64,000 nucleotides of DNA from Patescibacteria group bacterium (GTDB lineage: Bacteria > Patescibacteriota > Dojkabacteria > J137). A program made the translations under genes and the position numbers. The stretch is from contig BOLA01000001.1 in NCBI GenBank assembly GCA_016861265.1, positions 671,118 through 735,117 on the forward strand. Direction: 5' to 3'. This document shows positions 4,808 through 50,467 of this stretch, piece by piece (the stretch's first letter is position 1; each line of letters begins with the position of its first letter). The notes beneath the pieces were generated by a model. That model was given only the letters and a program-made list of their open reading frames with translations. It had not been told where the DNA came from and searched no databases.

Positions 4808-6319
4808 TTTATGGAGAGTTTGATCCTGGCTCAGGGTTAACGCTAGCGATGTGCCTAAGGTATGCAAGTCGAACGGTGAAATTTTGGTAGCAATACTGAA
4901 ATTTCGCAGTGGCAAACGGCTGAGTAACGCGTGGGAATCTCCCCCTAAGTCTGATATAGCTCACCGAAAGGTGGGGTAATCTCAGATAGTCTCGCGAGAG
5001 TAAAGATTTTTCGCTTAGGGATGAGCCCGCGTCCTATCAGGTTGTTGGTGAGGTAATGGCTCACCAAGCCTATGACGGGTAGCTGGTCTGAGAGGATGGC
5101 CAGCCAGACTGGGACTGCGATACGGCCCAGACTCCTACGGGAGGCAGCAACTAGGAATTATGCACAATGGCCGAAAGGCTGATGCTGCGACATCGCGTGG
5201 AGGATGAAGGTCTTAGGATCGTAAACTCCTTTTATCTACGAACAAGTTCTGAGTGTAGTAGATGAATAAGTGCCTGCCAACCACGTGCCAGAAGCATCGG
5301 TAATACGTGGGACACAAGCGTTACCCGGATTCACTGGGCGTAAAGAGATGCGTAGGCGTCTAGAAAAGTTCTGTGTTAAATCTCAAGGCTCACCCTTGAA
5401 ACTGCATAGAAAACTCTCTGGATTGAGTCATGTAGAGAAGAAGGGAATTCCTGGTGGAGCGGTTAAATGCGTTGATATCAGGAGGAACACCAATGGCGAA
5501 AGCACTTCTTTGGACATGTACTGACGCTAAGGCTCGAAAGTGTGGGGAGCAAAACGGATTAGATACCCGTGTAGTCCACACCGTAAACGATCCCTATTAG
5601 ATGTTCGAATTCTTGCTGAAATTTCTCTTCGGAGAAGGATAAGCATTATTTGAGTGTCGCAGCTAACGCGTTAAATAGGGCGCCTGTGAAGTACGACCGC
5701 AAGGTTAAAACACAAAGGAATTGACGGGGACCCGCACAAGCAGTGGAGTGCCTGGTTTAATTCGATGATCAGCGAAGAACCTCACCTGGGCTTGAACTGT
5801 AGCTGCAAACCCTATGAAAATAGGGCTCTTTCGAAGGTGCTATAGAGGTGATGCATGGCTGTTGTCAGCTCGTGTCGTGAGATGTCGGGTTAAGTCCCAC
5901 AACGAGCGCAACCCCTTTCAGATGTTACAATTACTTCTGATACTGCCCCGCCCAAACGGGGAGGAAGGAGGGGATGACATCCAGTCATCATGTCCCTTAT
6001 GTCCAGGGCTACACAGACACTACAATGGCGATATACAATGGGCTGCCAAACCGCGAGGTGGAGCTAATCCCATCAAAGATCGTCTCAGTTCAGATTGCAG
6101 GCTGCAACTCGCCTGTATGAAGTTGGAATTGCTAGTAATCGGACATCAGCATGGTCCGGTGAATACGTTCTCGGGTCTTGTACACACCGCCCGTCAGGGC
6201 ATGGGAGTTGCTCATACTCGAAGTCTACGTTTATCGTGGCCGAAAGTTATGGGTGGCGACTGGGCTTAAGTCGTAACAAGGTAGCCGTAGGGGAATCTGC
6301 GGCTGGATTACCTCCTTTC
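4808..6319 (+). rRNA. rrs: 16S ribosomal RNA
   Basis: The 5' end reads GAGTTTGATCCTGGCTCAG and the 3' end reads GTCGTAACAAGGTAGCCGTAGGGGAATCTGCGGCTGGATTACCTCCTTT. The length is about 1.51 kb and internal conserved blocks are present. Confidence 0.95.
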
Positions 6320-6468
6320 TAAGGAGTTAATCAACCAACTTTAACTAAGTTAAAGATTGTTTGATTCTTACCCATGATTTTGATACTCAAGGAAATTTAG
6401 AACCTTGTCACTTTTTTGTATTCAAAGATTTTTAAAAATTACCAGTAAGTTGCTGGTATGTTGAACAC

Positions 6469-6545
6469 AGGCCAATAGCTCAGCTGGTTAGAGCGCACCT
6501 CTGATAAGGGTGAGGTCCATGGTTCGAGTCCATGTTGGCCTACCA
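6469..6545 (+). tRNA. tRNA-Ile (GAT) in the 16S-23S spacer
   Basis: Cloverleaf with anticodon loop CTGATAA. The acceptor stem is AGGCCAA/TTGGCCT and a CCA end is encoded. Confidence 0.9.
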
Positions 6546-6625
6546 TTAATCAGAATACTAAATAGTAATTAGAAATTTATTTTGCTAAAATTTATAGCTT
6601 TAAATTGCTAATATTGTTTATTGTC

Positions 6626-6703
6626 GGGGCCTTAGCATAGCTGGTTTATTGCGCCTCATTTGCAATGAGGAGGTCAAGGGTTCGAATCCCTTAGGCTCCA
6701 CCA
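6626..6703 (+). tRNA. tRNA-Ala (TGC) in the 16S-23S spacer
   Basis: The sequence reads GGGGCCTTAGC...ATTTGCAAT... with a TTCGAATCC T-loop and an encoded CCA. Confidence 0.9.
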
Positions 6704-6802
6704 TTTTTGTTGTTTAATTAAAGTCAAAAGACGTAAATTAGCCAACAAAGTTTGGTTAAAACTTTGTTCATTAAAAACTGAATAGAAAGATATAATACAG
6801 AT

Positions 6803-9867
<3,065 letters not shown>

Positions 9868-10033
9868 TCTTTCAGCTTTCAGTTGTCAGTTAAGAGTGAT
9901 CTTTCTGATTACTTGAGACTGTAGACTGGAAACTCAATTATATCTTTTCTATTCAGTTTTTTTTGAACAAAGTTCAAAATTAACAATTTAAACTACGTCG
10001 TCATTAGACAAAAGTGCTTAATAAAAGCTTTTT

Positions 10034-10153
10034 TGTCCGGTGACGGTATCGCTTTGGACCCACCTGATCCCATTCCGAACTCAGAAGTGAAACATAGTTG
10101 AGCCGAAGGTACTTACGGGATACCCTGTCGGGAGAATAGGTAGTTGCCGGTAT
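10034..10153 (+). rRNA. rrf: 5S ribosomal RNA
   Basis: CCGAACTCAGAAGTGAAAC, GGGAGAATAGGTAGTTGCCGG and the terminal helix TGTCCGG/CCGGTAT are present. Confidence 0.9.
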
Positions 10154-20019: not shown

Positions 20020-21040
20020 ATGATTAACAATATACTTACACCTAAACGAATTGCCATTGATTTCGGCACTGCAAATTGTGTAATTATAATGGACGGTAAG
20101 GGTATTATTTTACAGGAACCGACTGTTGTAGCAATTTCACCTAAAGAAAAGAAAGTACTAGCGATTGGAGAGGATGCAAAGATAATGTTAGGGTAAAGTC
20201 CCTGAAGGGGTTGAGGCCAAAAGGCCACTTAAAAATGGTGGGATTTCTAATTATAGATTGGCCGAAGCCTTGTTAAGGCGTTTCTTTAAGAAAACAATGG
20301 GCAGGATTATGATAGTTAAACCCGAAGTAATTGTATCAGCCCCAGCTGGACTAACTTCAGTCGAGGAGCGAGCCCTAACACAAGCTCTAGCCTCCGTAGG
20401 AGCTGGAAAAATTTATATATTACCTGAACCTGTAGCAGCAGCAATTGGTGCAGGAATGCCAATTAATCTCCCAACAGGCAACTTAATTGTTAATCTAGGT
20501 GGTGGAACAGCGGAGGTAGCAGTGTTATCACTGAATGGAGTAGTTGCATACGAGTCTTATAGAGGAGCCGGTGATGCATTAAACGAGGCCATTACTAATT
20601 ATTTAAAAAGAAAGCATAATTTAATAATTGGTGAGAATACTGCTGAAGATATTAAAATACAATTTGCCTCTGCCTTAGAAGTCAAGAATCCAGTCCAAAT
20701 TGAAGTCAAGGGTAAGAATTCGAAGAATGGTCAACCCTCTGTTGTTTATATAAACTCAAATGAATTGGTTGAACCTACTAGAGAAGTACTTAACAATATT
20801 GCTAATACAGTAAAGAGAGTATTAACAAAGACACCACCAGAACTTATGGCCGATATAATAGACAACGGCATGATACTAAGCGGTGGAACATCTATGCTTA
20901 AAGGTATAGATGAGTTCTTAACAAAGGCAGTTGGAATACCTGCTAGTGTAGTTGATGAACCTTTAACTTGTGTTGCCAGAGGACTGGATATTGCACTGCA
21001 TAATTTAAATAGTTATAAGAGGAGTATTAAAATAACATAA
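20020..21040 (+). pseudogene. mreB: mreB paralog disrupted by a +1 frameshift near 20189-20197
   Basis: The N-terminal 58 aa (MINNILTPKRIAIDFGTANCVII...AIGEDAKIMLG) end at TAA 20194-20196. The actin-like continuation (GKVPEGVEAKRPLKNGGISNY...) reads in the +1 frame from 20192 and runs through ORF 20258-21040. Confidence 0.75.
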
Positions 21041-21041
21041 T

Positions 21042-22109
21042 ATGAAAGATCAGACTTTTAAAGAGATTCTACAGGAGTTAGGCAATATAGAAGTAACTCC
21101 ACTTTTAACGCCTATTCCTACGAATTTATCTGAAGAAATGGATAAATTTTTTAAAACACCCGGTTACAATCCTCAATTCAAGTACAGTAGACGCGACTTA
21201 TCTATGCAACGTAAACAAATAGATGAGTCTTTTGAGAAAATAGATTCTTCTTTACTAGAAGAAACTGAGAAGAAGTACCTTCTTGATGTTGCTTTCTTTA
21301 TTGAGTGCTTAATTGATCTGAACGAGTCACTAGGTAAGGAGAATTTATTCTGGGAGAATATACAGAGAGTCTATAATTGGGACTTAAATACTACTCCGGA
21401 CTTTAACAATTTAATATTAAGAAAAGAAGTTTCTGAGAATATCTACAATGCGATTACAATAAAGCAGAAACTAGAAGAAGCCCTAAATTCTCGTAACCTA
21501 GCGTGGAAAGTGGAGATTGTAGGGAAGGATAGGAGTGATGTGAGAGTGAGTATTGATAAACGGGTAGTTAATGTAGGAGAGCAAGCAGTATCAAATCCAA
21601 TCAAGCTCAAAAAAACAATTGTTCACGAGATTGATAGTCACATAATAAGATATGAAAATGCCCTAAAAACTGGCATTTCTATAATAGTTAGGGGTAATCT
21701 GCCTGGAAAAATATTAGCCGAAGAAGGTTTTGCAGTATTTAATGAGTATAAAAATGGGGTATTAACAACAGAAGACCTAGATAGGTATAAAATGAGATTC
21801 GAATTATGTAGAGAAGGCGGTAGTTTTAGGGAAATTTATACTAAATGTATTGATGTATATAAATTAAGCTCTACAAAGGCCTTTGAGACAACTCTACGAG
21901 TAAAACGAGGCTATGGGGATACTAATTATCCATATATACATAAAAAGGATTCATCTTATCTAAAAGGTTTAGAGCTAATTATTCAATCAGTTAAAGAAGT
22001 TGAGGACTATAAACATTTGTTCTGGGGTAGAGTACCTTCGGAAAATGAATATATTTTTAGTAAGCTGAGACTGGAAGACATAGATTTTACCTACCCCAGT
22101 TGGCTTTAA
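21042..22109 (+). CDS. Hypothetical HExxH protein, possibly DUF1704/QEGLA-motif family
   Basis: Contains HEIDSH (HExxH) and a downstream AEEGFAV motif resembling QEGLA. The family assignment is from memory only. Confidence 0.4.
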   Translation: MKDQTFKEILQELGNIEVTPLLTPIPTNLSEEMDKFFKTPGYNPQFKYSRRDLSMQRKQIDESFEKIDSSLLEETEKKYLLDVAFFIECLIDLNESLGKENLFWENIQRVYNWDLNTTPDFNNLILRKEVSENIYNAITIKQKLEEALNSRNLAWKVEIVGKDRSDVRVSIDKRVVNVGEQAVSNPIKLKKTIVHEIDSHIIRYENALKTGISIIVRGNLPGKILAEEGFAVFNEYKNGVLTTEDLDRYKMRFELCREGGSFREIYTKCIDVYKLSSTKAFETTLRVKRGYGDTNYPYIHKKDSSYLKGLELIIQSVKEVEDYKHLFWGRVPSENEYIFSKLRLEDIDFTYPSWL

Positions 22110-22915
22110 CGATATTCTAATAGAGAGTTAAAAGGCGTAATCTGGGTTTCTTCGATTATGTTCTTGGTAAGGTTGCCGTCTTGATCGTAGCCAAAAGTCA
22201 CTACTTTATTAAATTTATTGAAGAAAATTAAGGCTCTTTTATAGTAGGTATTATTGTAATCCATAGGATATGCTTTAAATCCATAGTATTCCTTGAATTC
22301 CATTAACCCAAGTCCCAATCTAATTCCATAAAGATTCTCATCTGTACCCCTTACAATCGTTTTTGCTTTCATCTCTAAAGCGAATTCATCTATACACATT
22401 TCCAGCAGTGCAGATAAGCTGGAATCCTTAATTTTTATATATTCATGGGCTCTATAGTCACACGATATTTCTTCCCGAAATCTATCAATACCAATAATTG
22501 CACCAGCAATTATTTTTCTCTCGGAATTCTTAATAAAAATTGATCCAAATTTATTAGTCTCTTTGGTCTTTTCAAACCATTTCATATCAATCTTAGGAAT
22601 ACCTAATTCCTTTTTCTCAATATTTTTATTGTATAATTCAAGCCATTCTGTGAATTCATTTTGATTTATGTTCTGGCTAAATTCAAAACTGTATAATAAT
22701 TCATTGTCAGCGTGCTTACGTGCTTTCAGTATCTTTTTCCTGGTCCCCTCAGACAGATATTCGAGAGGTTCATTAAATATGACTTCTTTCTTCCATTTTA
22801 TATTTCTTGGTCCGGGATAAGCTGTAGTTATATTATTTCTTACTGCGAAATCCCAGGGTAGATAGGCGTATGCCGGCTTATTATCGATGTAGAACAATTC
22901 TAATCTTTCGAACAT
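22106..22915 (-). CDS. FemAB-like/GNAT-fold acyltransferase-like protein. Last gene of the accessory operon.
   Basis: 269 aa. Fold-level resemblance to FemAB/BioF2-like acyl-CoA N-acyltransferases. Low-specificity call. Confidence 0.3.
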   Translation of the reverse strand: MFERLELFYIDNKPAYAYLPWDFAVRNNITTAYPGPRNIKWKKEVIFNEPLEYLSEGTRKKILKARKHADNELLYSFEFSQNINQNEFTEWLELYNKNIEKKELGIPKIDMKWFEKTKETNKFGSIFIKNSERKIIAGAIIGIDRFREEISCDYRAHEYIKIKDSSLSALLEMCIDEFALEMKAKTIVRGTDENLYGIRLGLGLMEFKEYYGFKAYPMDYNNTYYKRALIFFNKFNKVVTFGYDQDGNLTKNIIEETQITPFNSLLEYR

Positions 22916-22924
22916 AGATGTTTT

Positions 22925-23983
22925 TTAGCTAAGTAGTGAGGAGTAAAGCTTAAGATAATTTGCAGCCATAATGTCTCTTGTAAAATTTTCTGAAACCCAG
23001 GCTCTGCAGTTTTCAGGTTTTATAGAGTTTAATTCAGACAATTTAGCGGACATTTCTTCTTCGTTCATAGCTAAAAGACCAGAGAATCCATTTTTGATAG
23101 TTTCTCTAGTTAAACTATTATCTAGGGCAATCACAGGAGTTCCAGATGCCATTGCTTCTACGGGAACAAGTCCGAAAGGCTCTTTATTCCCGTCCAGTAT
23201 AGGGAATAAAACTGCCTTAGCCTTTGCGTAGTAATTTAATAATTCAAAGTGATCTATATTAGCGTGGTGTTCAACTAGCGGATTGTCTAAAAGAGGAGTA
23301 ACTTCTTCCTTGAAAAATTTTTCACTATCTTTATTCCCTTCCGAAGGTTTCCCAACAACGACTATCTTATATCCGTTATTTATTGCAACCCTCATTGCAA
23401 TATCAGCACCTTTTTTACGATCAAGCCTACCTACAAACAATAAAAAATCTTCTTTCTCTGCTTGAAAAGGAATAAGGTCGAGTTCAACCCCATTATATAT
23501 TGTTGTAACATTCTGAATTTTATCTAACAATGGAATTTTCTGTGTATTGGAGACTGTTACAAAATGGATATTTGGCGAATTAAATTTTTCAATCTGCTCA
23601 ATGAGCTCTTCGGTTATCGGGTTGTGAAGTGTTATTACAACTTTCTTATTCAATAGACTACCGATTGGAAGGGCGAATTCCACGTTATGCGTTTGAAATA
23701 TATCTGCCCAGTCTTTCTCCTGTTTAAAAGCATTAGCTAGATGATTAACAATAAACTTACCTCTTTTTGAACCAATCGCATTGTTGAATGGTGCATAGTT
23801 ATTTAACTCAATAGGGTAATAATACTTTAGCTCACCTGAAATTATAGAGTTTTTACATGCGTAGACCTTAAGCTCAGGATTTAATTTATATAGCGACTCG
23901 TTTAAATTGTAGAAAACTCTTTCCGGACCGCTTCTGCCATGGGGAATGTTAAACAAAATTGTGGCAATATGGCAAATATTCAT
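22925..23983 (-). CDS. Glycosyltransferase family 4 (GT-B)
   Basis: C-terminal E-x7-E signature EPFGLVPVEAMASGTPVIA. Confidence 0.8.
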   Translation of the reverse strand: MNICHIATILFNIPHGRSGPERVFYNLNESLYKLNPELKVYACKNSIISGELKYYYPIELNNYAPFNNAIGSKRGKFIVNHLANAFKQEKDWADIFQTHNVEFALPIGSLLNKKVVITLHNPITEELIEQIEKFNSPNIHFVTVSNTQKIPLLDKIQNVTTIYNGVELDLIPFQAEKEDFLLFVGRLDRKKGADIAMRVAINNGYKIVVVGKPSEGNKDSEKFFKEEVTPLLDNPLVEHHANIDHFELLNYYAKAKAVLFPILDGNKEPFGLVPVEAMASGTPVIALDNSLTRETIKNGFSGLLAMNEEEMSAKLSELNSIKPENCRAWVSENFTRDIMAANYLKLYSSLLS

Positions 23984-23985
23984 AT

Positions 23986-24924
23986 TTAAGGATTTCTAAT
24001 ATTCCTAAGGATCTCAAATTCAGTCGCTAGGTATTCAAATAAATTATATTTTTTAATGGACTCTATTACAGTATCTCTTATTTTTACTTTCTCCTGTGTA
24101 TCTACAGATGGATTCTGTAGCAATTTAAAGTAATAGTAAATATAGCCATAAAAGAGGTTAGTTTTACTTAATTTATTTACATTTAACTTCTTCTCTTCGA
24201 GTAATTTCTTTTTTGAATATAAATAGGCTCTATAACTTTCCGCTCTTGCCTTGTCCTTTCCTTGTAAGGAATTACTATTCACAAGACTTTCGTGACCCCT
24301 CCTAAAGTAACCCAATGGTTCAGAAATATAATCAAATCTGAAGTTGTTCATGCTAATTCGCAAAATTAAATCATGGTCTTCTGATAGCCTCATTGTTTCA
24401 TCAAAATATCCGACTTCATCAAAAATGGATTTCTTCATTAGTATAGACGTTATTGGTGGGTATCCGCCATTTTCGAATAATTCGGGAAAAAAATAATCCT
24501 TACGAAGTGTTTTTCCATAGATATTGTTTACATTTGAAATATCCCCTTCAAATCTATAGATTGGGTGGTAGGTTATATCTGTATCGTTTCTTTCGATTTG
24601 TCTTATCTGTAGTTCAAGCTTATTCTCCATCCATAAATCGTCGGAGTCTATAAATGCAATTAATTCCCCTTTCGCCTGCTTGATTGCTGCATTTCTTACT
24701 TTCCCAACATAACCACCACTATTTTCTGCTAGAAATACTGGTTTTATTCTAGAATCGTTTGCTGCATATTTTATTATTATGTCCTTAGATGAATCCGTAC
24801 TTCCATCATCAATAATAATATGCTCATAATCTGTGAAAGTTTGTTTCTGAACACTTTCTATTGTTTCTTGGATTACATTCTCTCTATTAAAAACAGGAGT
24901 TATGATTGATATTCTAGGTTGCAT
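23986..24924 (-). CDS. Glycosyltransferase family 2 (GT-A)
   Basis: N-terminal SIITPVFN...IIDDGSTD and a DSDD motif. Confidence 0.8.
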   Translation of the reverse strand: MQPRISIITPVFNRENVIQETIESVQKQTFTDYEHIIIDDGSTDSSKDIIIKYAANDSRIKPVFLAENSGGYVGKVRNAAIKQAKGELIAFIDSDDLWMENKLELQIRQIERNDTDITYHPIYRFEGDISNVNNIYGKTLRKDYFFPELFENGGYPPITSILMKKSIFDEVGYFDETMRLSEDHDLILRISMNNFRFDYISEPLGYFRRGHESLVNSNSLQGKDKARAESYRAYLYSKKKLLEEKKLNVNKLSKTNLFYGYIYYYFKLLQNPSVDTQEKVKIRDTVIESIKKYNLFEYLATEFEILRNIRNP

Positions 24925-24925
24925 T

Positions 24926-25708
24926 TTATTTATTTAACTTATTAAAGGGGCAGACCTCGATTAGAGGGTGTAAATCAATCTTATGATTATAATTATATAT
25001 TTGCGAATGTAAATCTTCAAGCTTTGTATCTTCAGTGATAACCATAGGCTTTACTAAAGGTCGATTCACAGACAAAAAATAATCTTCGAATTTAAATCCG
25101 TTACCGATAACCTTATCGGAAAATTCTACCCAGTAGGCTGGAATATTATAAGCATCGGAGGCAATAATACCATGTAAGGAACTTGAGAATATGATTTCGC
25201 AAGAATTAATCTCATCAATGAATTTAAATTTATCTTGTGTTATGTCTATTACCAATACATCTGGATTATTCTCTAAATTTTTGACAAATGCATTCTCTTT
25301 ATCTACATAGTGAGGAATTACTCCAATCTTATATTTCTTTTCGCTAATAACGGGTTTATATATTAAAGGGAAAAGAAGAGCAGGGTCACCATATATTTCA
25401 GGACATTCAATCCCTTGGTTTAACAACGATTTCCTTGTAAGTGGCCCCCTAACTGCTAATATTTTTGGTGAGGTAGAAATAGTGCTCTTTTCTGTAATAA
25501 AGCCGCTTCCCCAAACGACCGAATTATTCTTGGCTCTATCTAATATACTTCCAACAACATAATAAACTGGCCCTAAATATGACTCTAAATCATTTATGTG
25601 AGTTGGAATCTCTCCCGAAAAAAACTCTATTAATGTTGGATTTATTGCATCTCCCCAATTATTAACTACCTCTGGATTTTTGGATCTAAACCAATAAGCT
25701 ACTAACAT
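24926..25708 (-). CDS. Polysaccharide pyruvyl transferase-like protein
   Basis: N-terminal NNWGDAINPTL resembles the N(F/W)GD motif of the PS_pyruv_trans family. Confidence 0.45.
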   Translation of the reverse strand: MLVAYWFRSKNPEVVNNWGDAINPTLIEFFSGEIPTHINDLESYLGPVYYVVGSILDRAKNNSVVWGSGFITEKSTISTSPKILAVRGPLTRKSLLNQGIECPEIYGDPALLFPLIYKPVISEKKYKIGVIPHYVDKENAFVKNLENNPDVLVIDITQDKFKFIDEINSCEIIFSSSLHGIIASDAYNIPAYWVEFSDKVIGNGFKFEDYFLSVNRPLVKPMVITEDTKLEDLHSQIYNYNHKIDLHPLIEVCPFNKLNK

Positions 25709-25709
25709 A

Positions 25710-26636
25710 TTAATTTATAAGATAATTAGATAAATTTGTAAGGTAGGCCTCTAGTAAATCTAGACTCTCTTCACTAAAGACATCTAGCCCTGGCTTAGTA
25801 TTTGCCTCAACCAAAAGATATTTCTGAGAATGCCTATCGTACATAAAATCAAGTGAGAATATCTTCTTTTCGAATGCCTCGAGTCTTTGTATTATTTTTT
25901 TACATAATTCCAATAGATCTGGAATATTTTCTAATTTTATAAATTCAATGCTTGCACCTCTATGGAAGTTAGTATAGAGTGACCCTTCAGCAGCAATTCT
26001 TGATAATGCATATTGTGGACTTTCTCCGAGGAATACAACCCTGAAATCCTTTATTTCATTGTCTTGTTTTGCGTCAATAAAATCTTGTACAATTGAGTTG
26101 TGCTGTAAATAGATCTCTTTATCGTTTGTTATTTGGACCTGTTTTCCACCCGAACCTCTAATATTTTTAATGACTAGCGTCTTTCCATCCTCGTTTTTAA
26201 TGGTCTCTCCTGCTAATGCTAAGCGAGAGTAGGGAAGAAAGTCTTTAAATATCACAGCCTGATTTAATTTATTATCTATAAGGTTATCGAAATATGTATT
26301 ATTCACTAGTGGAATGATTTTTTCTATTTCAAGCTTCTTTTCGTGAATTTCGATTAAAAGATCACCTGTTATTTTATTAAAATTTCCACACTTATCATAA
26401 ATTACGTTAGGTTTTATTTCATTTTCTACCTTTTGCCACGAATTATTTACAAACTGCCACCCCTTAGTAAACTTGCCTTCCTTAAACCAATTAATGTTGC
26501 TTCTATAGAGTCTAATATCCAATTTCTTACATACTTTTCCCCAAGTTGAATAACCTAAATTCTGACTAGGAGTAAAATCTGGCTTCTCTAGGTTCCAATC
26601 CTCTTCGTTGTTTAGTATTAGTATCGATTTATTCAT
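25710..26636 (-). CDS. ATP-grasp fold enzyme, sugar-transfer-associated/YheCD-like (paralog 1)
   Basis: Contains GSGGKQVQI, FRVVFLG...SRIA and LLVEANTKPG. It is clearly paralogous to the adjacent gene. Confidence 0.6.
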   Translation of the reverse strand: MNKSILILNNEEDWNLEKPDFTPSQNLGYSTWGKVCKKLDIRLYRSNINWFKEGKFTKGWQFVNNSWQKVENEIKPNVIYDKCGNFNKITGDLLIEIHEKKLEIEKIIPLVNNTYFDNLIDNKLNQAVIFKDFLPYSRLALAGETIKNEDGKTLVIKNIRGSGGKQVQITNDKEIYLQHNSIVQDFIDAKQDNEIKDFRVVFLGESPQYALSRIAAEGSLYTNFHRGASIEFIKLENIPDLLELCKKIIQRLEAFEKKIFSLDFMYDRHSQKYLLVEANTKPGLDVFSEESLDLLEAYLTNLSNYLIN

Positions 26637-27556
26637 TAGTTTAGTAAATAATCAGTTAATTTTGAGTAGAAAAGTTCCATTATTTCAATATTATCTACAA
26701 ATACTCCAACTCCAGGTGTGCTATTAAATTCCATTAGGTATGGCTTATTTGATTGAGTCTCTACAATAAAATCTAGTGAATATATTAGTTTAGGAAATAC
26801 TGAAAGAGGTTGGGATATTTCTTTAGCCTTCTCAACAAGAAACGGTATAGTATTCATATCTACAATCTCAGAATGGGCTCCTTTGTTAGTATTTGTAAAG
26901 CTGGAGTCCTTTTCTGCTATTCTACTTGCAGCGTATACCAATTCACTTCCTATAAAAACTAATCTGTAGTCCCTCAGTTCGTCGTTTGCTCTTGCATCAA
27001 TAAATTCTTGAATAATACTATTTTCACTTATTATAATATTTCTATCTTCACTTATCTGAACCTGATTCCCACCCGATCCATAAGGCAACTTTATTACCAG
27101 TTTACTATTATTGTTTACCGAAGTATTAGCGGGTACAAATTTACTATTAGGTAAGTATTTATTAAATAATACTAATTGGTTAATCTTGTTGTCTAAAAAT
27201 AAAGACGCTTCTGGAGGGTTAATAAATTTGTATTTTGAAGCCACTAGTATTTTTTTATTATACAAGTCAGACTCAAGGTGACCGTTTGTTTTATCGTAAA
27301 TTCTTGCCTTGTCATAGACTACATCAGGATTAAAGTTATTACTGATCTTTTCCCAAGCTTTTGTATTGGGATTATATTCCCAATACTTTGCAAAACTTTC
27401 ACCGTTAAACCAGTTTATTTCGCTCCTTACAAGCTTTATATCTCTTGATGCGCATAAATCTCCCCAATAAGAGTAAGATCTTCTGAATCTTTCCTTATGT
27501 TCAGGCTGATCTAAATGCCAATCATCTCCAGTGTAGAGTATCAAAATGGATTTCAT
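26636..27556 (-). CDS. ATP-grasp fold enzyme (paralog 2)
   Basis: Contains GSGGNQVQI, YRLVFIG...SRIA and LMEFNSTPG. It overlaps its neighbours by 1-4 nt. Confidence 0.6.
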   Translation of the reverse strand: MKSILILYTGDDWHLDQPEHKERFRRSYSYWGDLCASRDIKLVRSEINWFNGESFAKYWEYNPNTKAWEKISNNFNPDVVYDKARIYDKTNGHLESDLYNKKILVASKYKFINPPEASLFLDNKINQLVLFNKYLPNSKFVPANTSVNNNSKLVIKLPYGSGGNQVQISEDRNIIISENSIIQEFIDARANDELRDYRLVFIGSELVYAASRIAEKDSSFTNTNKGAHSEIVDMNTIPFLVEKAKEISQPLSVFPKLIYSLDFIVETQSNKPYLMEFNSTPGVGVFVDNIEIMELFYSKLTDYLLN

Positions 27557-29034
27557 ACTTGTATTTTTGAAGGGTCAATTAGAAACTTTCCAAGGGTGTT
27601 ATTGCCCAATAGTATTTTATAGCTTAGATGTTTTCTGTCAAATATTGTAAAGTTCGTAATAATTTCTTGTCCCTCTATAATTATCTTTATATTTACATAT
27701 AGTCTTAAGCTTGTCCCATGGCTTGATCTTATGTATTTTATATTTGTAAGATAATCAAATTTCAATTTAAGTTTAGTGAATATATCTTGAGCTACGACCT
27801 GGGCTTCATCTTCAGTTGTAAGCTTGCTAGAGGCTTCACTATAAAGTATCTTAAATTCTTCTATTATATCCCCGAATCCTAACGATACTGCGAGGGATTC
27901 ATCAATGGATGATAGGTCTGCACCAGTATCCACCTTTGCTTTTATATTGAACGAAGTTTGCAGATCAAGGCTATATACCTCTATGTTTGTTGTTAATCCA
28001 ATAACTTGTTTTCCTGATAGGCTCTCAATTTCCTCTTCTATTTCTCCACCGAACAGGTCTTTTGCAAGTCTTACGGCTCTTTCAGTAGTTTTCACTTTAA
28101 TTCCGGAAGCCTTTTTTAATCTCCATCTCAGACCATCATCATTTGCAAGTTGAATTGAAAGTCCTGGTCTTGCATTCATTTCAACAATTACGGGTCCTTT
28201 TTCTTCATCTATTAAGAAATCAACTGCCCCGAACCCAAGTCCGGTTACTTTGCTTGCTTCACAGGCGTACCTCAATATTTTGTCCCAATAAGGAATTTTT
28301 ATACCAGATAAAGGTAAATTGGTATTTGGGACATAATCGATTGCGGTGGATTTCCCAATTATTGAGGATGTGGTTTTTCCAACTGCCATGTCAATTCCTG
28401 CTGCTATTGCTCCTAAATCAAGGTTTGCTTTCCCATCAGATTCTTTTGTCGGTAGCCTAATATAACTCATTACAGGAATAGAGTTGAATATTAGGACTCT
28501 AATGTCTGGTGCACCTTTATAACTGTAATACTTAAAACCTTTATGTGGTCTAACTCTTTCTTCAATCAAGGCCCTGTCGGGTTCATTAAATAGAGAATAT
28601 CTACCATCTAGAATATCCTGTATTAAGGACTTTAAGTCGTCTTCAGTGTATCTTCTATTGCCAGAGGCAATCCATTTACCCTCCTTATTTCTATTATATA
28701 CAATGGTTACACCACCGCCTCTCACTCCTTTTACAGGCTTTATTACAAATGACTTGGGTAGAGTAGAGAAATCAAATTCATTTAGCTGGTTTCGGTTCTT
28801 AATTACCTTTACAAGTGTAGGAACAGGGATTCCAGCCCTGGCTAGAATTCTTTTGGATATAGTTTTATCATCCGCAATCTTAATGGCACCTCTTTTATTA
28901 TATGGACGAATGTAATTTAGATATCTCTCATTCCTTCCCAAAACTAATTTTCTATTTTCAATTATCTTGCTTAGGCTGATCATTTGTAGTCTTATTATCC
29001 CCAAATAAAATGCTTCGGAATCTCCAGTACTCAT
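27553..29034 (-). CDS. RimK-like ATP-grasp ligase fused to a C-terminal retropepsin-like (DTGA) protease domain
   Basis: N-terminal ATP-grasp (VIKPVKGVRGGGV; VDFLIDEEKGPVIVEMNARPGLS). C-terminal AKVDTGADLSSID aspartic-protease signature of the RimK-associated protease family. An alternative start at 28983 is possible. Confidence 0.65.
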   Translation of the reverse strand: MSTGDSEAFYLGIIRLQMISLSKIIENRKLVLGRNERYLNYIRPYNKRGAIKIADDKTISKRILARAGIPVPTLVKVIKNRNQLNEFDFSTLPKSFVIKPVKGVRGGGVTIVYNRNKEGKWIASGNRRYTEDDLKSLIQDILDGRYSLFNEPDRALIEERVRPHKGFKYYSYKGAPDIRVLIFNSIPVMSYIRLPTKESDGKANLDLGAIAAGIDMAVGKTTSSIIGKSTAIDYVPNTNLPLSGIKIPYWDKILRYACEASKVTGLGFGAVDFLIDEEKGPVIVEMNARPGLSIQLANDDGLRWRLKKASGIKVKTTERAVRLAKDLFGGEIEEEIESLSGKQVIGLTTNIEVYSLDLQTSFNIKAKVDTGADLSSIDESLAVSLGFGDIIEEFKILYSEASSKLTTEDEAQVVAQDIFTKLKLKFDYLTNIKYIRSSHGTSLRLYVNIKIIIEGQEIITNFTIFDRKHLSYKILLGNNTLGKFLIDPSKIQV

Positions 29035-29689
29035 TTAACCTTAGTCCGGTAAATCTGCCAAGGTAAACATTGACAATTATTAGTATTGGAATGATCAATA
29101 AATTAGTTTCTACGAAGCTCTGTAGCCTTGTAATTGATATGAAAATGTAACAAAACAATGCAGTGATGAAAGTATCTATTGCAGTATTAAATCCGTAGCT
29201 TGTTCCCTTTCTAGCAAAGGCTGAGACAAAGGGTTCGACTAATATAGCTAAGATTATTAATGTAAATTTATTTAAGAACACTGGTCCATTAAATCCTACA
29301 ATTCCTGCTACAACAATACAGGCAAAAAGCGAGATTACTACGCCAAGTGTAACTAATGTTAGTTTAGGTATGTAGTTCATCCTAAGATATTTTAGGACTC
29401 TATATACTAACCAGCTAGTGATTAGTGTTATGGTGTAGAGTAATACTCCATATTTCACTGCCTTCCATATATCTTGTTCTCCAGCGTTATTGCCAAATTC
29501 ATATAAAAGGAAGGTGATGATTACCGGGGTAAAGATTCCGAGGCTTTTTATTCCAATAACATATCTGGCGATTCCAATTATCGTTGTAACCACAGGAAGA
29601 AGTATCAATATTACAAATACCTCTTTATATAGTGCAACTTCTGTTGCTGGGATTCCTCTTTGTATTAATAAATTCCAAATTATATCCAT
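28958..29689 (-). CDS. Standalone seven-transmembrane protein, the type associated with RimK-like ATP-grasp systems
   Basis: 243 aa with seven predicted hydrophobic helices. First gene of the operon, overlapping the next gene. Confidence 0.55.
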   Translation of the reverse strand: MDIIWNLLIQRGIPATEVALYKEVFVILILLPVVTTIIGIARYVIGIKSLGIFTPVIITFLLYEFGNNAGEQDIWKAVKYGVLLYTITLITSWLVYRVLKYLRMNYIPKLTLVTLGVVISLFACIVVAGIVGFNGPVFLNKFTLIILAILVEPFVSAFARKGTSYGFNTAIDTFITALFCYIFISITRLQSFVETNLLIIPILIIVNVYLGRFTGLRLNEYWRFRSILFGDNKTTNDQPKQDN

Positions 29690-44921: not shown

Positions 44922-45554
44922 ATGGTAACAATAGATCAGATTAAAGAGTTAAGAACTATAACTGGAGCCGGAGTAGGGGCAGTTAGAGAAGCTCTTGAGA
45001 CAACAAATGGTGATGTAGCAGAAGCAATTAAATTCCTTAGAGCTAAGGGATTGGCTAAGGCCGGTAAGAGAAAAGGAAAAGTTGCAGAACATGGTATCTT
45101 GGGGACTTATATTCACTCAAACAAAAAATTTGTAGTAGTAGTAGAGGTTGCTTGTGAGACTGACTTTGCTGCTAAGAGTGAAGATATGAATAAATTTGCT
45201 AACGATTTGGCAGTTCATATCGCAGCTGTTAATCCTAAATATATTTCTGTTAGCTCAATTGACAAAGAAACTTTGGCTAATGAACTTTCAGCAGCTGAAT
45301 CTGGCCTGGATAACAAACCAGATGAAATAAGAAAAACGATAATTAATGGAAAACTGGAAAAATTCTACCAGGAGGTAGTATTATTAAAGCAGACATTATT
45401 TACTGATGAATCTAAAACAGTAGAAGATTATCAAAACGAAATGGTAGCTAAGATAGGCGAAAAAATAGAAATTACACAATTTTATAAATTTCAAGTTGGC
45501 GAACCAGTAGTTTCAAATACTGCTGCTCCCGAAGAAGAAGTAACAGAAGAATAA
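44922..45554 (+). CDS. tsf: Elongation factor Ts
   Basis: Contains IKELRTITGAGVGAVREALE... Short form. Confidence 0.85.
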   Translation: MVTIDQIKELRTITGAGVGAVREALETTNGDVAEAIKFLRAKGLAKAGKRKGKVAEHGILGTYIHSNKKFVVVVEVACETDFAAKSEDMNKFANDLAVHIAAVNPKYISVSSIDKETLANELSAAESGLDNKPDEIRKTIINGKLEKFYQEVVLLKQTLFTDESKTVEDYQNEMVAKIGEKIEITQFYKFQVGEPVVSNTAAPEEEVTEE

Positions 45555-50179: not shown

Positions 50180-50467
50180 ATGAAGTACGAATTGGCACTT
50201 GTTATAAAGCCACTTAGCACAGAAGATGTTAAGGAGAAGGTTCTTCCAAAAGTAGAATCTACAGTAAAGGAATTAGGTGGAACAATAAAGTTAACAAATC
50301 CTTTGGGAAAAAGAATGTTAGCTTACCCAGTAAATAAATTTAAAGAAGGATTTTACTACTTCTACGATGTAGAAATGTCTTCAGGCAAAACTACAGAATT
50401 CAGAAAATCACTCAGAATGAATTCAGATGTATTAAGATCTTTATTGATTAAGAAAGAAGAAGTTTAA
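50180..50467 (+). CDS. rpsF: 30S ribosomal protein S6
   Basis: MKYELALVIKP... at the head of the rpsF-ssb-rpsR cluster. Confidence 0.85.
   Translation: MKYELALVIKPLSTEDVKEKVLPKVESTVKELGGTIKLTNPLGKRMLAYPVNKFKEGFYYFYDVEMSSGKTTEFRKSLRMNSDVLRSLLIKKEEV

What the first reader, a model, noticed from the sequence alone, without database searches (positions are those of the whole stretch)
27553..29034. RimK-like ATP-grasp ligase fused to a retropepsin-like DTGA protease domain
The N-terminal ~330 aa carry ATP-grasp motifs (VIKPVKGVRGGGV; EMNARPGLS). The C-terminal ~130 aa contain AKVDTGADLSSID, the aspartic-protease signature of the RimK-associated protease family. Fusing a peptide-bond-forming enzyme to a peptide-bond-cleaving domain in one polypeptide suggests a build-and-trim cycle, for example a poly-amino-acid tail added and processed on a partner such as the adjacent 7TM protein.
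Basis: partly seen in the sequence, partly recalled or inferred. Interest (0 to 1): 0.65.

Follow-up and report, generated by a model that had tools for sequence, protein, structure and literature searches.

The report
Ligase–protease fusion of Rlo type
This gene from a tiny uncultured (CPR/Dojkabacteria) bacterium joins a peptide-building ATP-grasp ligase to a retrovirus-like aspartic protease, and always sits beside a 7-helix membrane protein; it is a compact, fused version of the recently described bacterial Rlo/Rim polyglutamate "build and trim" systems, not a new kind of system.

Summary
The ORF is real, but the annotated start is probably M18 (27553..28983, 476 aa). Residues 1-311 are an RloC-type ATP-grasp ligase (PF14397, 5e-63; 38% identical to a Legionella RloC). 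Residues 326-476 model as a retropepsin whose best structural matches are Pseudomonas RloA and RloA2, then Ddi1 and HIV protease. DTGA is invariant in 120 protein homologues and intact in 78 of 80 genome loci. The three RloA residues that hold polyglutamate (K46, R114, R137) are conserved as K350, R427 and R450.

The upstream overlapping gene matches only the 7TM half of RloB and lacks the inactive transglutaminase domain. This 7TM + fusion pair recurs in 78 of 80 loci from Dojkabacteria, Moranbacteria and other Patescibacteria.

The locus is therefore a two-gene form of RloABC (mBio 2025). It is related to, but in reverse domain order from, the RimBK hybrid (JBC 2025).

The likely mechanism is inferred, not shown: polymerisation of acidic residues, probably alpha-Glu, with trimming by the dimeric protease on the cytoplasmic face of the 7TM partner.

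Verdict: new variant of a known kind, moderate interest.

The parts
28958..29689 (-). 7TM membrane protein (243 aa), the RloB-like 7TM module without the inactive transglutaminase ectodomain. It ends in a conserved cytoplasmic motif, GLRLNEYWRFR.
   Evidence: PF14402 7TM_transglut at 3.1e-17. NF052267 RloB matches only model positions 312-506 of 508. 22% identical to residues 309-500 of Legionella RloB, including the terminal motif. Seven hydrophobic segments. Lies immediately upstream of the fusion gene in 78/80 loci. Motif conservation is shown.
27553..28983 (-). Fusion gene as publicly annotated (476 aa plus stop).
28051..28983 (-). RloC-type ATP-grasp amidoligase domain (aa 1-311), with no transmembrane segment or signal peptide.
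   Evidence: PF14397 at 5.1e-63 and TIGR02291 at 1.5e-78. 38% identical over aa 14-311 to the RloC of a canonical Legionella rloABC operon. Foldseek top hits are ArgX/LysX and RimK. ATP/Mg motif residues K82, G86/G89/G91, D255, E268, N270 and R272 are invariant. Maximum 19-residue hydropathy is 1.07, so no TM segment.
28009..28050 (-). Conserved acidic linker GGEIEEEIESLSGK (aa 312-325). It begins exactly where stand-alone RloC ends.
   Evidence: G312, G313 and I315 are invariant; E314, E316, E317 and E320 are at least 90% conserved in 60 sequences. The motif FGGE[IV]EEE is kept in Moranbacteria. RloC homology ends at F311. Coordinates checked.
27556..28008 (-). RimB/RloA-type retropepsin-like aspartic endopeptidase domain (aa 326-476). 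It carries a two-helix hairpin (aa about 362-406) between the DTGA strand and the flap-like hairpin.
   Evidence: PF05618 above its gathering score. The family profile hits 9g58, 9g59 and 2pma over the whole domain. AF2 pLDDT is 93.4. Foldseek ranks RloA, RloA2 and Lpg0085 first, then Ddi1 and HIV-1 protease.
27919..27930 (-). Catalytic D-T-G-A codons (D352-A355 of the 476-aa protein, D369-A372 of the 493-aa ORF).
   Evidence: Translation. Invariant in 121/121 sequences. Intact in 78/80 genome loci.
26636..27556 (-). Accessory RimK-like ATP-grasp ligase (306 aa). Its start overlaps the stop of the fusion gene.
   Evidence: PF08443 at 1.5e-9; the best NCBIfam hits are all alpha-L-glutamate ligases (MptN, RimK family, CofF) but below their cut-offs. 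A homologue lies directly downstream of the fusion gene in roughly 30 of 80 loci (my count from the table).
25710..26636 (-). Second accessory RimK/YheCD-like ATP-grasp ligase (308 aa).
   Evidence: PF08443 at 5.3e-12 and PF14398 at 4.5e-11. Context.
22106..25708 (-). Variable tail of the same co-directional gene string: polysaccharide pyruvyl transferase (24926-25708), GT2 (23986-24924), GT4 (22925-23983) and a weak FemAB-like protein (22106-22915).
   Evidence: Pfam. Not conserved in most relatives, so membership of the system is uncertain.
21042..22109 (+). MATCAP/DUF1704-like metallocarboxypeptidase (TIGR02421 'QEGLA' family, with HEIDSH and AEEGFA motifs). It follows mreB and converges on the ligase string. 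A possible third member, doing C-terminal trimming.
   Evidence: PF08014 at 2.1e-22 and TIGR02421 at 6e-26, below cut-off. The same mreB-MATCAP layout converging on a 7TM-fusion-ligase string occurs in L088. One metagenomic protein, P0125, fuses ATPgrasp_ST + retropepsin + MATCAP, but it is a singleton.

Best explanation
The gene encodes a cytoplasmic two-domain enzyme. An RloC-type ATP-grasp amidoligase is joined, through a conserved acidic linker, to a RimB/RloA-type retropepsin-like aspartic endopeptidase. It is translationally coupled to an RloB-like 7TM membrane protein that lacks the extracytoplasmic inactive-transglutaminase domain. Together the two genes are the Patescibacteria (CPR) form of the Rlo system.

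Shown here:
- domain identities, fold and intact catalytic motifs;
- conservation of the three basic residues that hold polyglutamate in RloA;
- obligate pairing with the 7TM gene across CPR lineages.

Inferred:
- The ligase domain adds acidic residues, most likely alpha-linked L-glutamate, to a growing chain or to an unidentified acceptor.
- The protease domain, active only as a homodimer formed when the enzyme oligomerises, cuts runs of glutamate. This limits or recycles the product and, as RimB does for RimK, may stimulate the ligase.
- The 7TM protein tethers, gates or exports at the membrane through its conserved cytoplasmic C-terminal motif.
- Extra RimK-like ligases, and perhaps the MATCAP-like carboxypeptidase, diversify or finish the product.

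The confidence of 0.6 is a blend: about 0.9 for the domain identities and the Rlo-type assignment, and about 0.5 for the polyglutamate build-and-trim mechanism.
For: - Domain HMMs.
- 38% identity to the RloC of a canonical rloA-rloB-rloC operon, and 7TM homology to the C-terminal half of RloB.
- High-confidence AF2 models.
- Foldseek top hits for the C-terminal domain are RloA (9g58), RloA2 (9g59) and Lpg0085 (2pma), then Ddi1 and HIV protease.
- DTGA is invariant in 121/121 sequences and intact in 78/80 loci.
- K350, R427 and R450 align with RloA K46, R114 and R137 with identical 23-residue R-R spacing. Mutating RloA R114 or R137 had the strongest effect on polyE cleavage and abolished complementation (PMC12239564).
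- RimB cleaves polyE and stimulates RimK, and an active RimB-RimK hybrid exists (PMC11957791).
- Loss of rloB or rloC suppresses loss of the RloA proteases in P. aeruginosa, so the ligase and membrane protein make what the protease removes.
- The 7TM gene is adjacent in 78/80 loci.
- There is no signal peptide, TM segment or cysteine in the protease domain, which fits a cytoplasmic location like RimB.
Against: - No biochemical data exist for any CPR member. The amino acid used by RloC-type ligases has not been determined, even in Pseudomonas.
- In Proteobacteria the RloA protease is secreted, and another fusion, P0268, places the protease on the outer side of the 7TM. The compartment in which trimming occurs is therefore not conserved, which weakens a simple transfer of mechanism.
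- The protein scores below the equivalog cut-offs of TIGR02291, RimB and RloA.
- The region that forms strands and a disordered flap in RloA is a helical hairpin here, so specificity may differ.
- Two loci have a degenerate active site (DTGN, DPSI), so the domain may also have a non-catalytic role.
- Pfam names the ligase family 'sugar-transfer associated', and glycosyltransferases lie downstream.
Confidence: 0.6

Rival explanations
1. The ligase modifies a sugar or cell-envelope polymer, for example amidating an amino-sugar or uronic acid, rather than building polyglutamate. The protease domain then processes a different, unknown peptide.
For: The best Pfam family is 'Sugar-transfer associated ATP-grasp'. 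Downstream in the same orientation lie a pyruvyl transferase, GT2 and GT4. GT4 or YdjC deacetylase genes follow the module in several relatives, and YdjC is fused to it in P0149. Rlo and RloB mutants have envelope phenotypes (PMC12239564; PMC12096838).
Against: The glycosyl genes are absent from most loci, including the closest Dojkabacteria. The constant core is only 7TM + fusion. The protease keeps the polyE-binding K/R/R triad. The closest specific ligase family is the RloC/alpha-L-glutamate-ligase-like one.
Confidence: 0.2
2. The 7TM protein itself is the acceptor: a tail is built on it and trimmed from it.
For: The two genes are invariably adjacent and overlap. The 7TM protein has a conserved cytoplasmic C-terminal motif shared with RloB. 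In Dojkabacteria the tails after the motif are often acidic.
Against: The residues after the motif are short, variable and basic in Moranbacteria, unlike the conserved Glu-Glu end of the RimK substrate S6. There is no terminal Glu in this window (...PKQDN). The conserved motif looks more like a docking site than an acceptor.
Confidence: 0.12
3. Polyprotein-style autoprocessing: the protease cuts the conserved Glu-rich linker and releases itself from the ligase, as retroviral proteases do.
For: There is a retropepsin precedent. The linker GGEIEEEIE is almost invariant across phyla and sits exactly at the domain junction.
Against: RimB needs at least 6 contiguous Glu (5 in one special case) and RloA at least 8. 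The linker has at most 3 in a row. The RimBK hybrid was purified and was active on polyglutamylated RpsF.
Confidence: 0.08
4. The protease domain is mainly a non-catalytic polyanion-binding or ligase-activating module.
For: RimB stimulates RimK by direct binding. Two loci keep the domain with a ruined active site: L013 has DTGN with R427T, and L014 has DPSI with R427E.
Against: DTGA and the K/R/R triad are intact in 78/80 loci and 121/121 proteins. That is strong purifying selection on the catalytic residues.
Confidence: 0.07

Closest known systems
RloABC operon of Pseudomonas and other Gammaproteobacteria (Lormand et al., mBio 2025, PMC12239564)
   Same: All three functional modules are present: an RloC-type ATP-grasp (38% identity to a Legionella orthologue), the RloB-type 7TM domain with the same C-terminal motif, and an RloA-type retropepsin with DTGA and the K46/R114/R137 equivalents.
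   Different: There are two genes instead of three. The protease is fused to the C-terminus of the ligase and so is cytoplasmic, with no signal peptide and none of the cysteines that form the RloA disulfide. The 7TM protein lacks the periplasmic inactive transglutaminase domain. Gene order is B-(C::A) rather than A-B-C. A helical hairpin replaces part of the RloA flap region. The host is Patescibacteria, whereas 96% of RloB sequence hits come from Proteobacteria.
RimBK hybrid and the RimB/RimK pair (Little et al., JBC 2025, PMC11957791)
   Same: A retropepsin-like polyE endopeptidase is physically joined to an ATP-grasp ligase in one cytoplasmic polypeptide, giving the same build-and-trim logic.
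   Different: The domain order is reversed: RimBK has the protease at the N-terminus. The ligase here is not RimK proper (58.7 bits against a cut-off of 143.4). A 7TM partner is present. The window's S6 ends in ...KKEEV and has no Glu-Glu terminus. RimBK occurs mainly in Flavobacteriales and Rhodobacterales.
Eukaryotic tubulin tail enzymes (TTL/TTLL ATP-grasp ligases with the MATCAP carboxypeptidase)
   Same: An ATP-grasp ligase that adds amino acids occurs together with a MATCAP-family peptidase (window 21042..22109). One metagenomic protein fuses all of them.
   Different: This is an analogy only. No substrate is known, the link rests on neighbourhood in a few Dojkabacteria and on a singleton fusion, and the endopeptidase here is a retropepsin.

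Membership tests
RloC-type ATP-grasp (Pfam PF14397 ATPgrasp_ST; NCBIfam TIGR02291) | Match to PF14397 above the gathering score | tested here: met
   213.3 bits against 31.4, residues 39-308 of the 493-aa ORF.
RloC-type ATP-grasp (Pfam PF14397 ATPgrasp_ST; NCBIfam TIGR02291) | Score above the TIGR02291 equivalog cut-off | tested here: not met
   264 bits against a cut-off of 314.2. It is by far the best family (next best 58.7 bits), so this is a divergent relative, not a strict equivalog.
RloC-type ATP-grasp (Pfam PF14397 ATPgrasp_ST; NCBIfam TIGR02291) | ATP-grasp fold and conserved ATP/Mg-binding residues | tested here: met
   Foldseek hits to ArgX, RimK and Ddl at E about 1e-10. K82, the Gly-rich loop, D255, E268, N270 and R272 are invariant.
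RloC-type ATP-grasp (Pfam PF14397 ATPgrasp_ST; NCBIfam TIGR02291) | alpha-L-glutamate (or other) ligase activity | not testable with these tools
   Needs an enzyme assay. The substrate is undetermined even for Pseudomonas RloC.
RimB/RloA retropepsin-like peptidases (PF05618) | HMM match above the gathering score | tested here: met
   35.5 bits against 27, but only the C-terminal half aligns for the single sequence. The family profile aligns over the whole domain to 9g58, 9g59 and 2pma.
RimB/RloA retropepsin-like peptidases (PF05618) | Retropepsin fold | tested here: met
   AF2 pLDDT 93.4. Foldseek probability 1.00 to RloA, RloA2, Lpg0085, Ddi1 and HIV-1 protease; TM-score 0.55-0.67 normalised to the target.
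RimB/RloA retropepsin-like peptidases (PF05618) | Catalytic D-T-G-A conserved in orthologues | tested here: met
   121/121 proteins and 78/80 genome loci.
RimB/RloA retropepsin-like peptidases (PF05618) | Basic residues that coordinate polyglutamate (RloA K46, R114, R137) | tested here: met
   K350, R427 and R450 are invariant in the 60-sequence alignment and align to the RloA positions.
RimB/RloA retropepsin-like peptidases (PF05618) | Homodimer with the active site at the interface | not testable with these tools
RimB/RloA retropepsin-like peptidases (PF05618) | NCBIfam equivalog cut-offs for RimB, RloA2 and RloA3 | tested here: not met
   29.9, 15.6 and 24.4 bits against cut-offs of 200, 250 and 210.
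RloA sensu stricto (secreted Rlo peptidase) | N-terminal signal peptide and the conserved cysteine pair forming a disulfide | tested here: not met
   The domain is internal, fused after a cytoplasmic ligase. No hydrophobic segment is present. There is no cysteine in residues 330-493 (sequence; criterion).
RloB (inactive transglutaminase fused to 7TM) | 7TM_transglut domain | tested here: met
   PF14402 at 63.3 bits against 25. Aligns to Legionella RloB residues 309-500.
RloB (inactive transglutaminase fused to 7TM) | N-terminal periplasmic inactive transglutaminase domain | tested here: not met
   The protein is only 243 aa, and the match covers only model positions 312-506 of 508. Most CPR orthologues are 202-256 aa.
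RimBK hybrid | Protease domain N-terminal to a RimK-family ligase | tested here: not met
   The order here is ligase then protease. RimK family model: 58.7 bits against 143.4.
RimBK hybrid | Ribosomal protein S6 with a Glu-Glu C-terminus as target | tested here: not met
   The window's RpsF (50180..50467) ends in ...LLIKKEEV.

The most novel reading that the evidence does not exclude
Three enzymes could form a prokaryotic counterpart of the tubulin tail 'code': the ligase(s), the retropepsin endopeptidase and the neighbouring MATCAP-like carboxypeptidase. They would write, shorten and erase amino-acid tails on a cytoskeletal or envelope-building protein at the membrane. MreB would be one candidate, because its gene is followed by the MATCAP-like gene and abuts this locus in several Dojkabacteria, and because Pseudomonas rlo mutants have cell-shape defects. 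The evidence does not exclude this reading, but the only support is gene neighbourhood, one singleton triple fusion and a published phenotype in another phylum.
Probability: 0.06. Interest if true: 0.85.

Novelty: new variant of a known kind. Interest (0 to 1): 0.45.

Why it matters
How the Rlo system works is an open question. In Pseudomonas it controls osmotic tolerance, biofilm formation, antibiotic sensitivity and cell shape. Neither the product of the RloC ligase nor the natural substrate of the RloA protease is known.

This fusion acts as a natural 'Rosetta stone'. It ties the ligase and the protease to the same substrate. It also shows that a working version needs only the 7TM half of RloB, and that the protease can act on the cytoplasmic side.

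The pair is retained in hundreds of genome-reduced Patescibacteria, here in a 1.1-Mb genome. That suggests an important role and offers a compact two-protein system for biochemical reconstitution.

Tried and rejected
- **Apparent triple fusions.** My script reported 7TM-ligase-protease fusions in L032 and L064. These were an ORF-extension bug; the ORF listing shows separate genes.
- **Single-sequence PDB search.** phmmer of the C-terminal domain found nothing. Only the family profile did.
- **Full-length fold search.** The result was dominated by ATP-grasp hits, so a separate model of the C-terminal domain was needed.
- **A recollection that was not confirmed.** I recalled that TIGR02421 (QEGLA/MATCAP) genes neighbour TIGR02291 ligases in Proteobacteria. 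The one Vibrio locus examined instead has the MATCAP domain fused to an N-formylglutamate amidohydrolase domain, with no ligase nearby.
- **Promoter and terminator scan.** Counts were at chance level.
- **S6 as target.** Rejected because its C-terminus is not Glu-Glu.
- **Linker as cleavage site.** Judged unlikely from the published length requirements.
- **Literature search.** Nothing was found on this architecture in CPR.
Full report
**1. Observation**

DTGA lies at nt 27919-27930.

All 120 closest database proteins lack the first 17 residues. The identical public protein, on a 1.11-Mb Dojkabacteria contig, is 476 aa and begins at M18. Gene callers in relatives also start 26 nt inside the upstream gene. 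I therefore treat 27553..28983 as the gene; the DNA around the two ATGs is not decisive. Residue numbers below refer to the 476-aa protein.

The window also carries an rRNA operon. Its best protein matches are named Candidatus Dojkabacteria.

**2. Anatomy**

*Ligase, aa 1-311.* Pfam ATPgrasp_ST scores 5.1e-63 and NCBIfam TIGR02291 ('alpha-L-glutamate ligase-like') scores 1.5e-78. The latter is the best family by 200 bits but falls below its equivalog cut-off. The full-length AF2 model has pLDDT 89.1, and its Foldseek hits are ArgX/LysX, RimK, cyanophycin synthetase and Ddl. The ATP/Mg residues are invariant. There is no hydrophobic segment.

*Linker, aa 312-325, GGEIEEEIESLSGK.* It starts exactly where a stand-alone RloC ends. 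It is almost invariant from Dojkabacteria to Moranbacteria. The full-length model has low confidence around it (pLDDT 59-70).

*Protease, aa 326-476.* PF05618 scores above its gathering score. The family profile aligns over the full domain to PDB 9g58, 9g59 and 2pma. The domain model has pLDDT 93.4. Foldseek ranks P. fluorescens RloA, P. aeruginosa RloA2 and Legionella Lpg0085 first, followed by Ddi1 and HIV-1 protease.

D352, G354 and A355 are invariant, and T353 is present in 120 of 121 sequences. K350, R427 and R450 align with RloA K46, R114 and R137. These are polyglutamate ligands in RloA. Mutating R114 or R137 reduced polyE cleavage most and abolished complementation.

Two features differ from RloA. 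A two-helix hairpin (aa about 362-406) replaces the strand and flap segment. The cysteine pair typical of secreted RloA is absent.

**3. Surroundings**

The overlapping upstream gene (28958..29689, 243 aa) is a 7TM protein. It matches only the C-terminal 7TM half of RloB and shares the cytoplasmic end motif GLRLxEYxRFR.

Downstream on the same strand lie two RimK-like ATP-grasp ligases, a pyruvyl transferase, GT2, GT4 and a weak FemAB-like protein. Converging from the other strand are mreB and a MATCAP/TIGR02421-like metallopeptidase.

**4. Relatives**

A scan of one genome per species returned at least 568 relatives. The best 80 all match through the protease domain. By record title they come from Dojkabacteria, Moranbacteria and other Patescibacteria; some bins carry doubtful automatic labels.

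The 7TM gene is immediately upstream in 78 of 80 loci; the two exceptions lie at contig ends. In Dojkabacteria the pair follows rplJ-rplL and is followed by mreB. An extra RimK-like ligase lies downstream in roughly 30 of 80 loci, by my count from the table.

The stretch between the fusion gene and mreB is a variable island. Depending on the lineage it carries a Mur ligase, a GNAT-ATP-grasp protein, a GARS_A-type ligase, GT4 or YdjC.

DTGA is intact in 78 of 80 loci. L013 (DTGN, R427T) and L014 (DPSI, R427E) are degenerate.

A library-wide search with the protease domain found only 378 representatives at E-value 0.001 or better. Besides the ligase-protease form they include:
- the fusion with an added second ATP-grasp domain;
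- the fusion with added MATCAP, YdjC or an unknown domain;
- the RimBK order, with the protease first;
- a signal-anchored protease fused to the outer end of a 7TM domain (P0268);
- tandem retropepsins.

**5. Comparison with known systems**

A Legionella plasmid carries a canonical rloA-rloB-rloC operon. The window protein is 38% identical to its RloC.

In P. aeruginosa, RloA proteases are secreted dimers that cut runs of at least 8 Glu. Deleting rloB or rloC suppresses the defects of the triple protease mutant.

RimB is the cytoplasmic homologue. It cuts runs of at least 6 Glu and stimulates polyglutamate synthesis by RimK. An active RimB-RimK hybrid with the protease at the N-terminus has been characterised.

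The window locus has the Rlo parts list, but in two genes, in a different order, without any extracytoplasmic part, and with the protease on the ligase. Strict membership tests fail for RloA (signal peptide, disulfide), RloB (transglutaminase domain), RimBK (order, RimK-type ligase, S6 Glu-Glu end) and all the NCBIfam equivalog cut-offs. It works like these systems, but it is a distinct variant.

**6. Mechanism**

Identity, fold, catalytic integrity, the conserved polyanion ligands and the obligate 7TM partnership are shown. The rest is inferred by analogy:
- ATP-dependent addition of Glu by the ligase;
- cleavage of Glu runs by a dimeric protease domain, which limits or recycles the chains and possibly activates the ligase;
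- docking to, or export through, the 7TM protein.

The main uncertainty is the compartment. Proteobacterial RloA and the P0268-type fusion act outside the membrane, whereas the CPR fusion must act inside.

The conserved acidic linker remains unexplained. It is too short in contiguous Glu to be a good cleavage site. It could instead be a pseudo-substrate or an interface.

**7. Verdict**

The fusion is widespread in public CPR genomes and carries only generic automatic names, such as 'sugar-transfer associated ATP-grasp domain-containing protein', 'alpha-L-glutamate ligase-like protein' and 'ATP-dependent zinc protease'. I found no paper describing it.

It is a new variant of a known kind. Its interest is moderate, mainly as a minimal model and a Rosetta-stone clue for the unresolved Rlo mechanism.

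Noticed in passing
window 21042..22109 (+); L088 7001-8167; L089 7001-8152: A MATCAP/DUF1704-like (TIGR02421 'QEGLA') metallopeptidase gene directly follows mreB and converges on the ligase gene string. The same mreB-MATCAP pairing occurs in two other Dojkabacteria contigs, and in L088 it again faces a 7TM-fusion-ligase string. One metagenomic protein (P0125, 916 aa, a singleton) fuses ATPgrasp_ST + retropepsin + MATCAP.
   Followed up: partly
window 20020..20196 and 20258..21040 (+): mreB is split into a 58-aa N-terminal ORF and a 260-aa ORF in a different frame; relatives have a single gene of 334-351 aa. This is a frameshift, a pseudogene or a sequencing error.
   Followed up: partly
L013 and L014 (fusion genes at 6001-7392 and 649-2043): Two related genomes keep the protease domain but have a degenerate active site: DTGN with R427T in L013, and DPSI with R427E in L014. 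This hints at a non-catalytic role for the domain in that lineage.
   Followed up: partly
P0268 (378 aa, metagenomic): A signal-anchored retropepsin domain is fused to the N-terminal (outer) end of a 7TM_transglut domain, where RloB has its inactive transglutaminase. This is the opposite compartment from the CPR ligase-protease fusion.
   Followed up: partly
P0190, P0212, P0215, P0248, P0259: Proteins of 221-303 aa carry two DTGA motifs 109-139 residues apart. P0212 has two PF05618 matches. These may be single-chain, pepsin-like pseudo-dimers of the bacterial retropepsin.
   Followed up: no
window 28009..28050 (-): The interdomain linker GGEIEEEIESLSGK is almost invariant across CPR phyla, which is unusual for a linker. 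Its function is unknown.
   Followed up: partly
L081, L083, L084, L088 (between the fusion gene and mreB): This interval is a variable island of different amide-bond-forming enzymes: RimK-like, a 499-aa GNAT-ATP-grasp protein, a Mur ligase and a GARS_A-type ATP-grasp protein. YdjC and GT4 genes occur in Moranbacteria loci, and YdjC is fused to the module in P0149.
   Followed up: partly
window 44922..45554 (+) and 50180..50467 (+): EF-Ts ends in ...AAPEEEVTEE, a Glu-Glu terminus, whereas ribosomal protein S6 ends in ...KKEEV. Among the window's ORFs of at least 80 aa, only the EF-Ts ORF ends in Glu-Glu, and none has a run of four or more Glu.
   Followed up: no
L087 4056-6047 (Vibrio sp. HDW18 plasmid): The protein annotated 'QEGLA motif protein' is a 663-aa fusion of an N-formylglutamate amidohydrolase-like domain with the MATCAP domain. 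Both parts relate to glutamate and amide hydrolysis.
   Followed up: no
window 4808..10152 (+): A complete rRNA operon: 16S, two tRNAs, 23S and 5S. The 23S match spans 3049 nt against a 2925-position model, so it probably carries a small insertion.
   Followed up: no
H3, CP007061.1 106116-107009 (Halobacterium sp. DL1 plasmid): An unannotated archaeal stretch encodes an RloC-like ligase 35% identical to residues 14-309 of the fusion protein.
   Followed up: no
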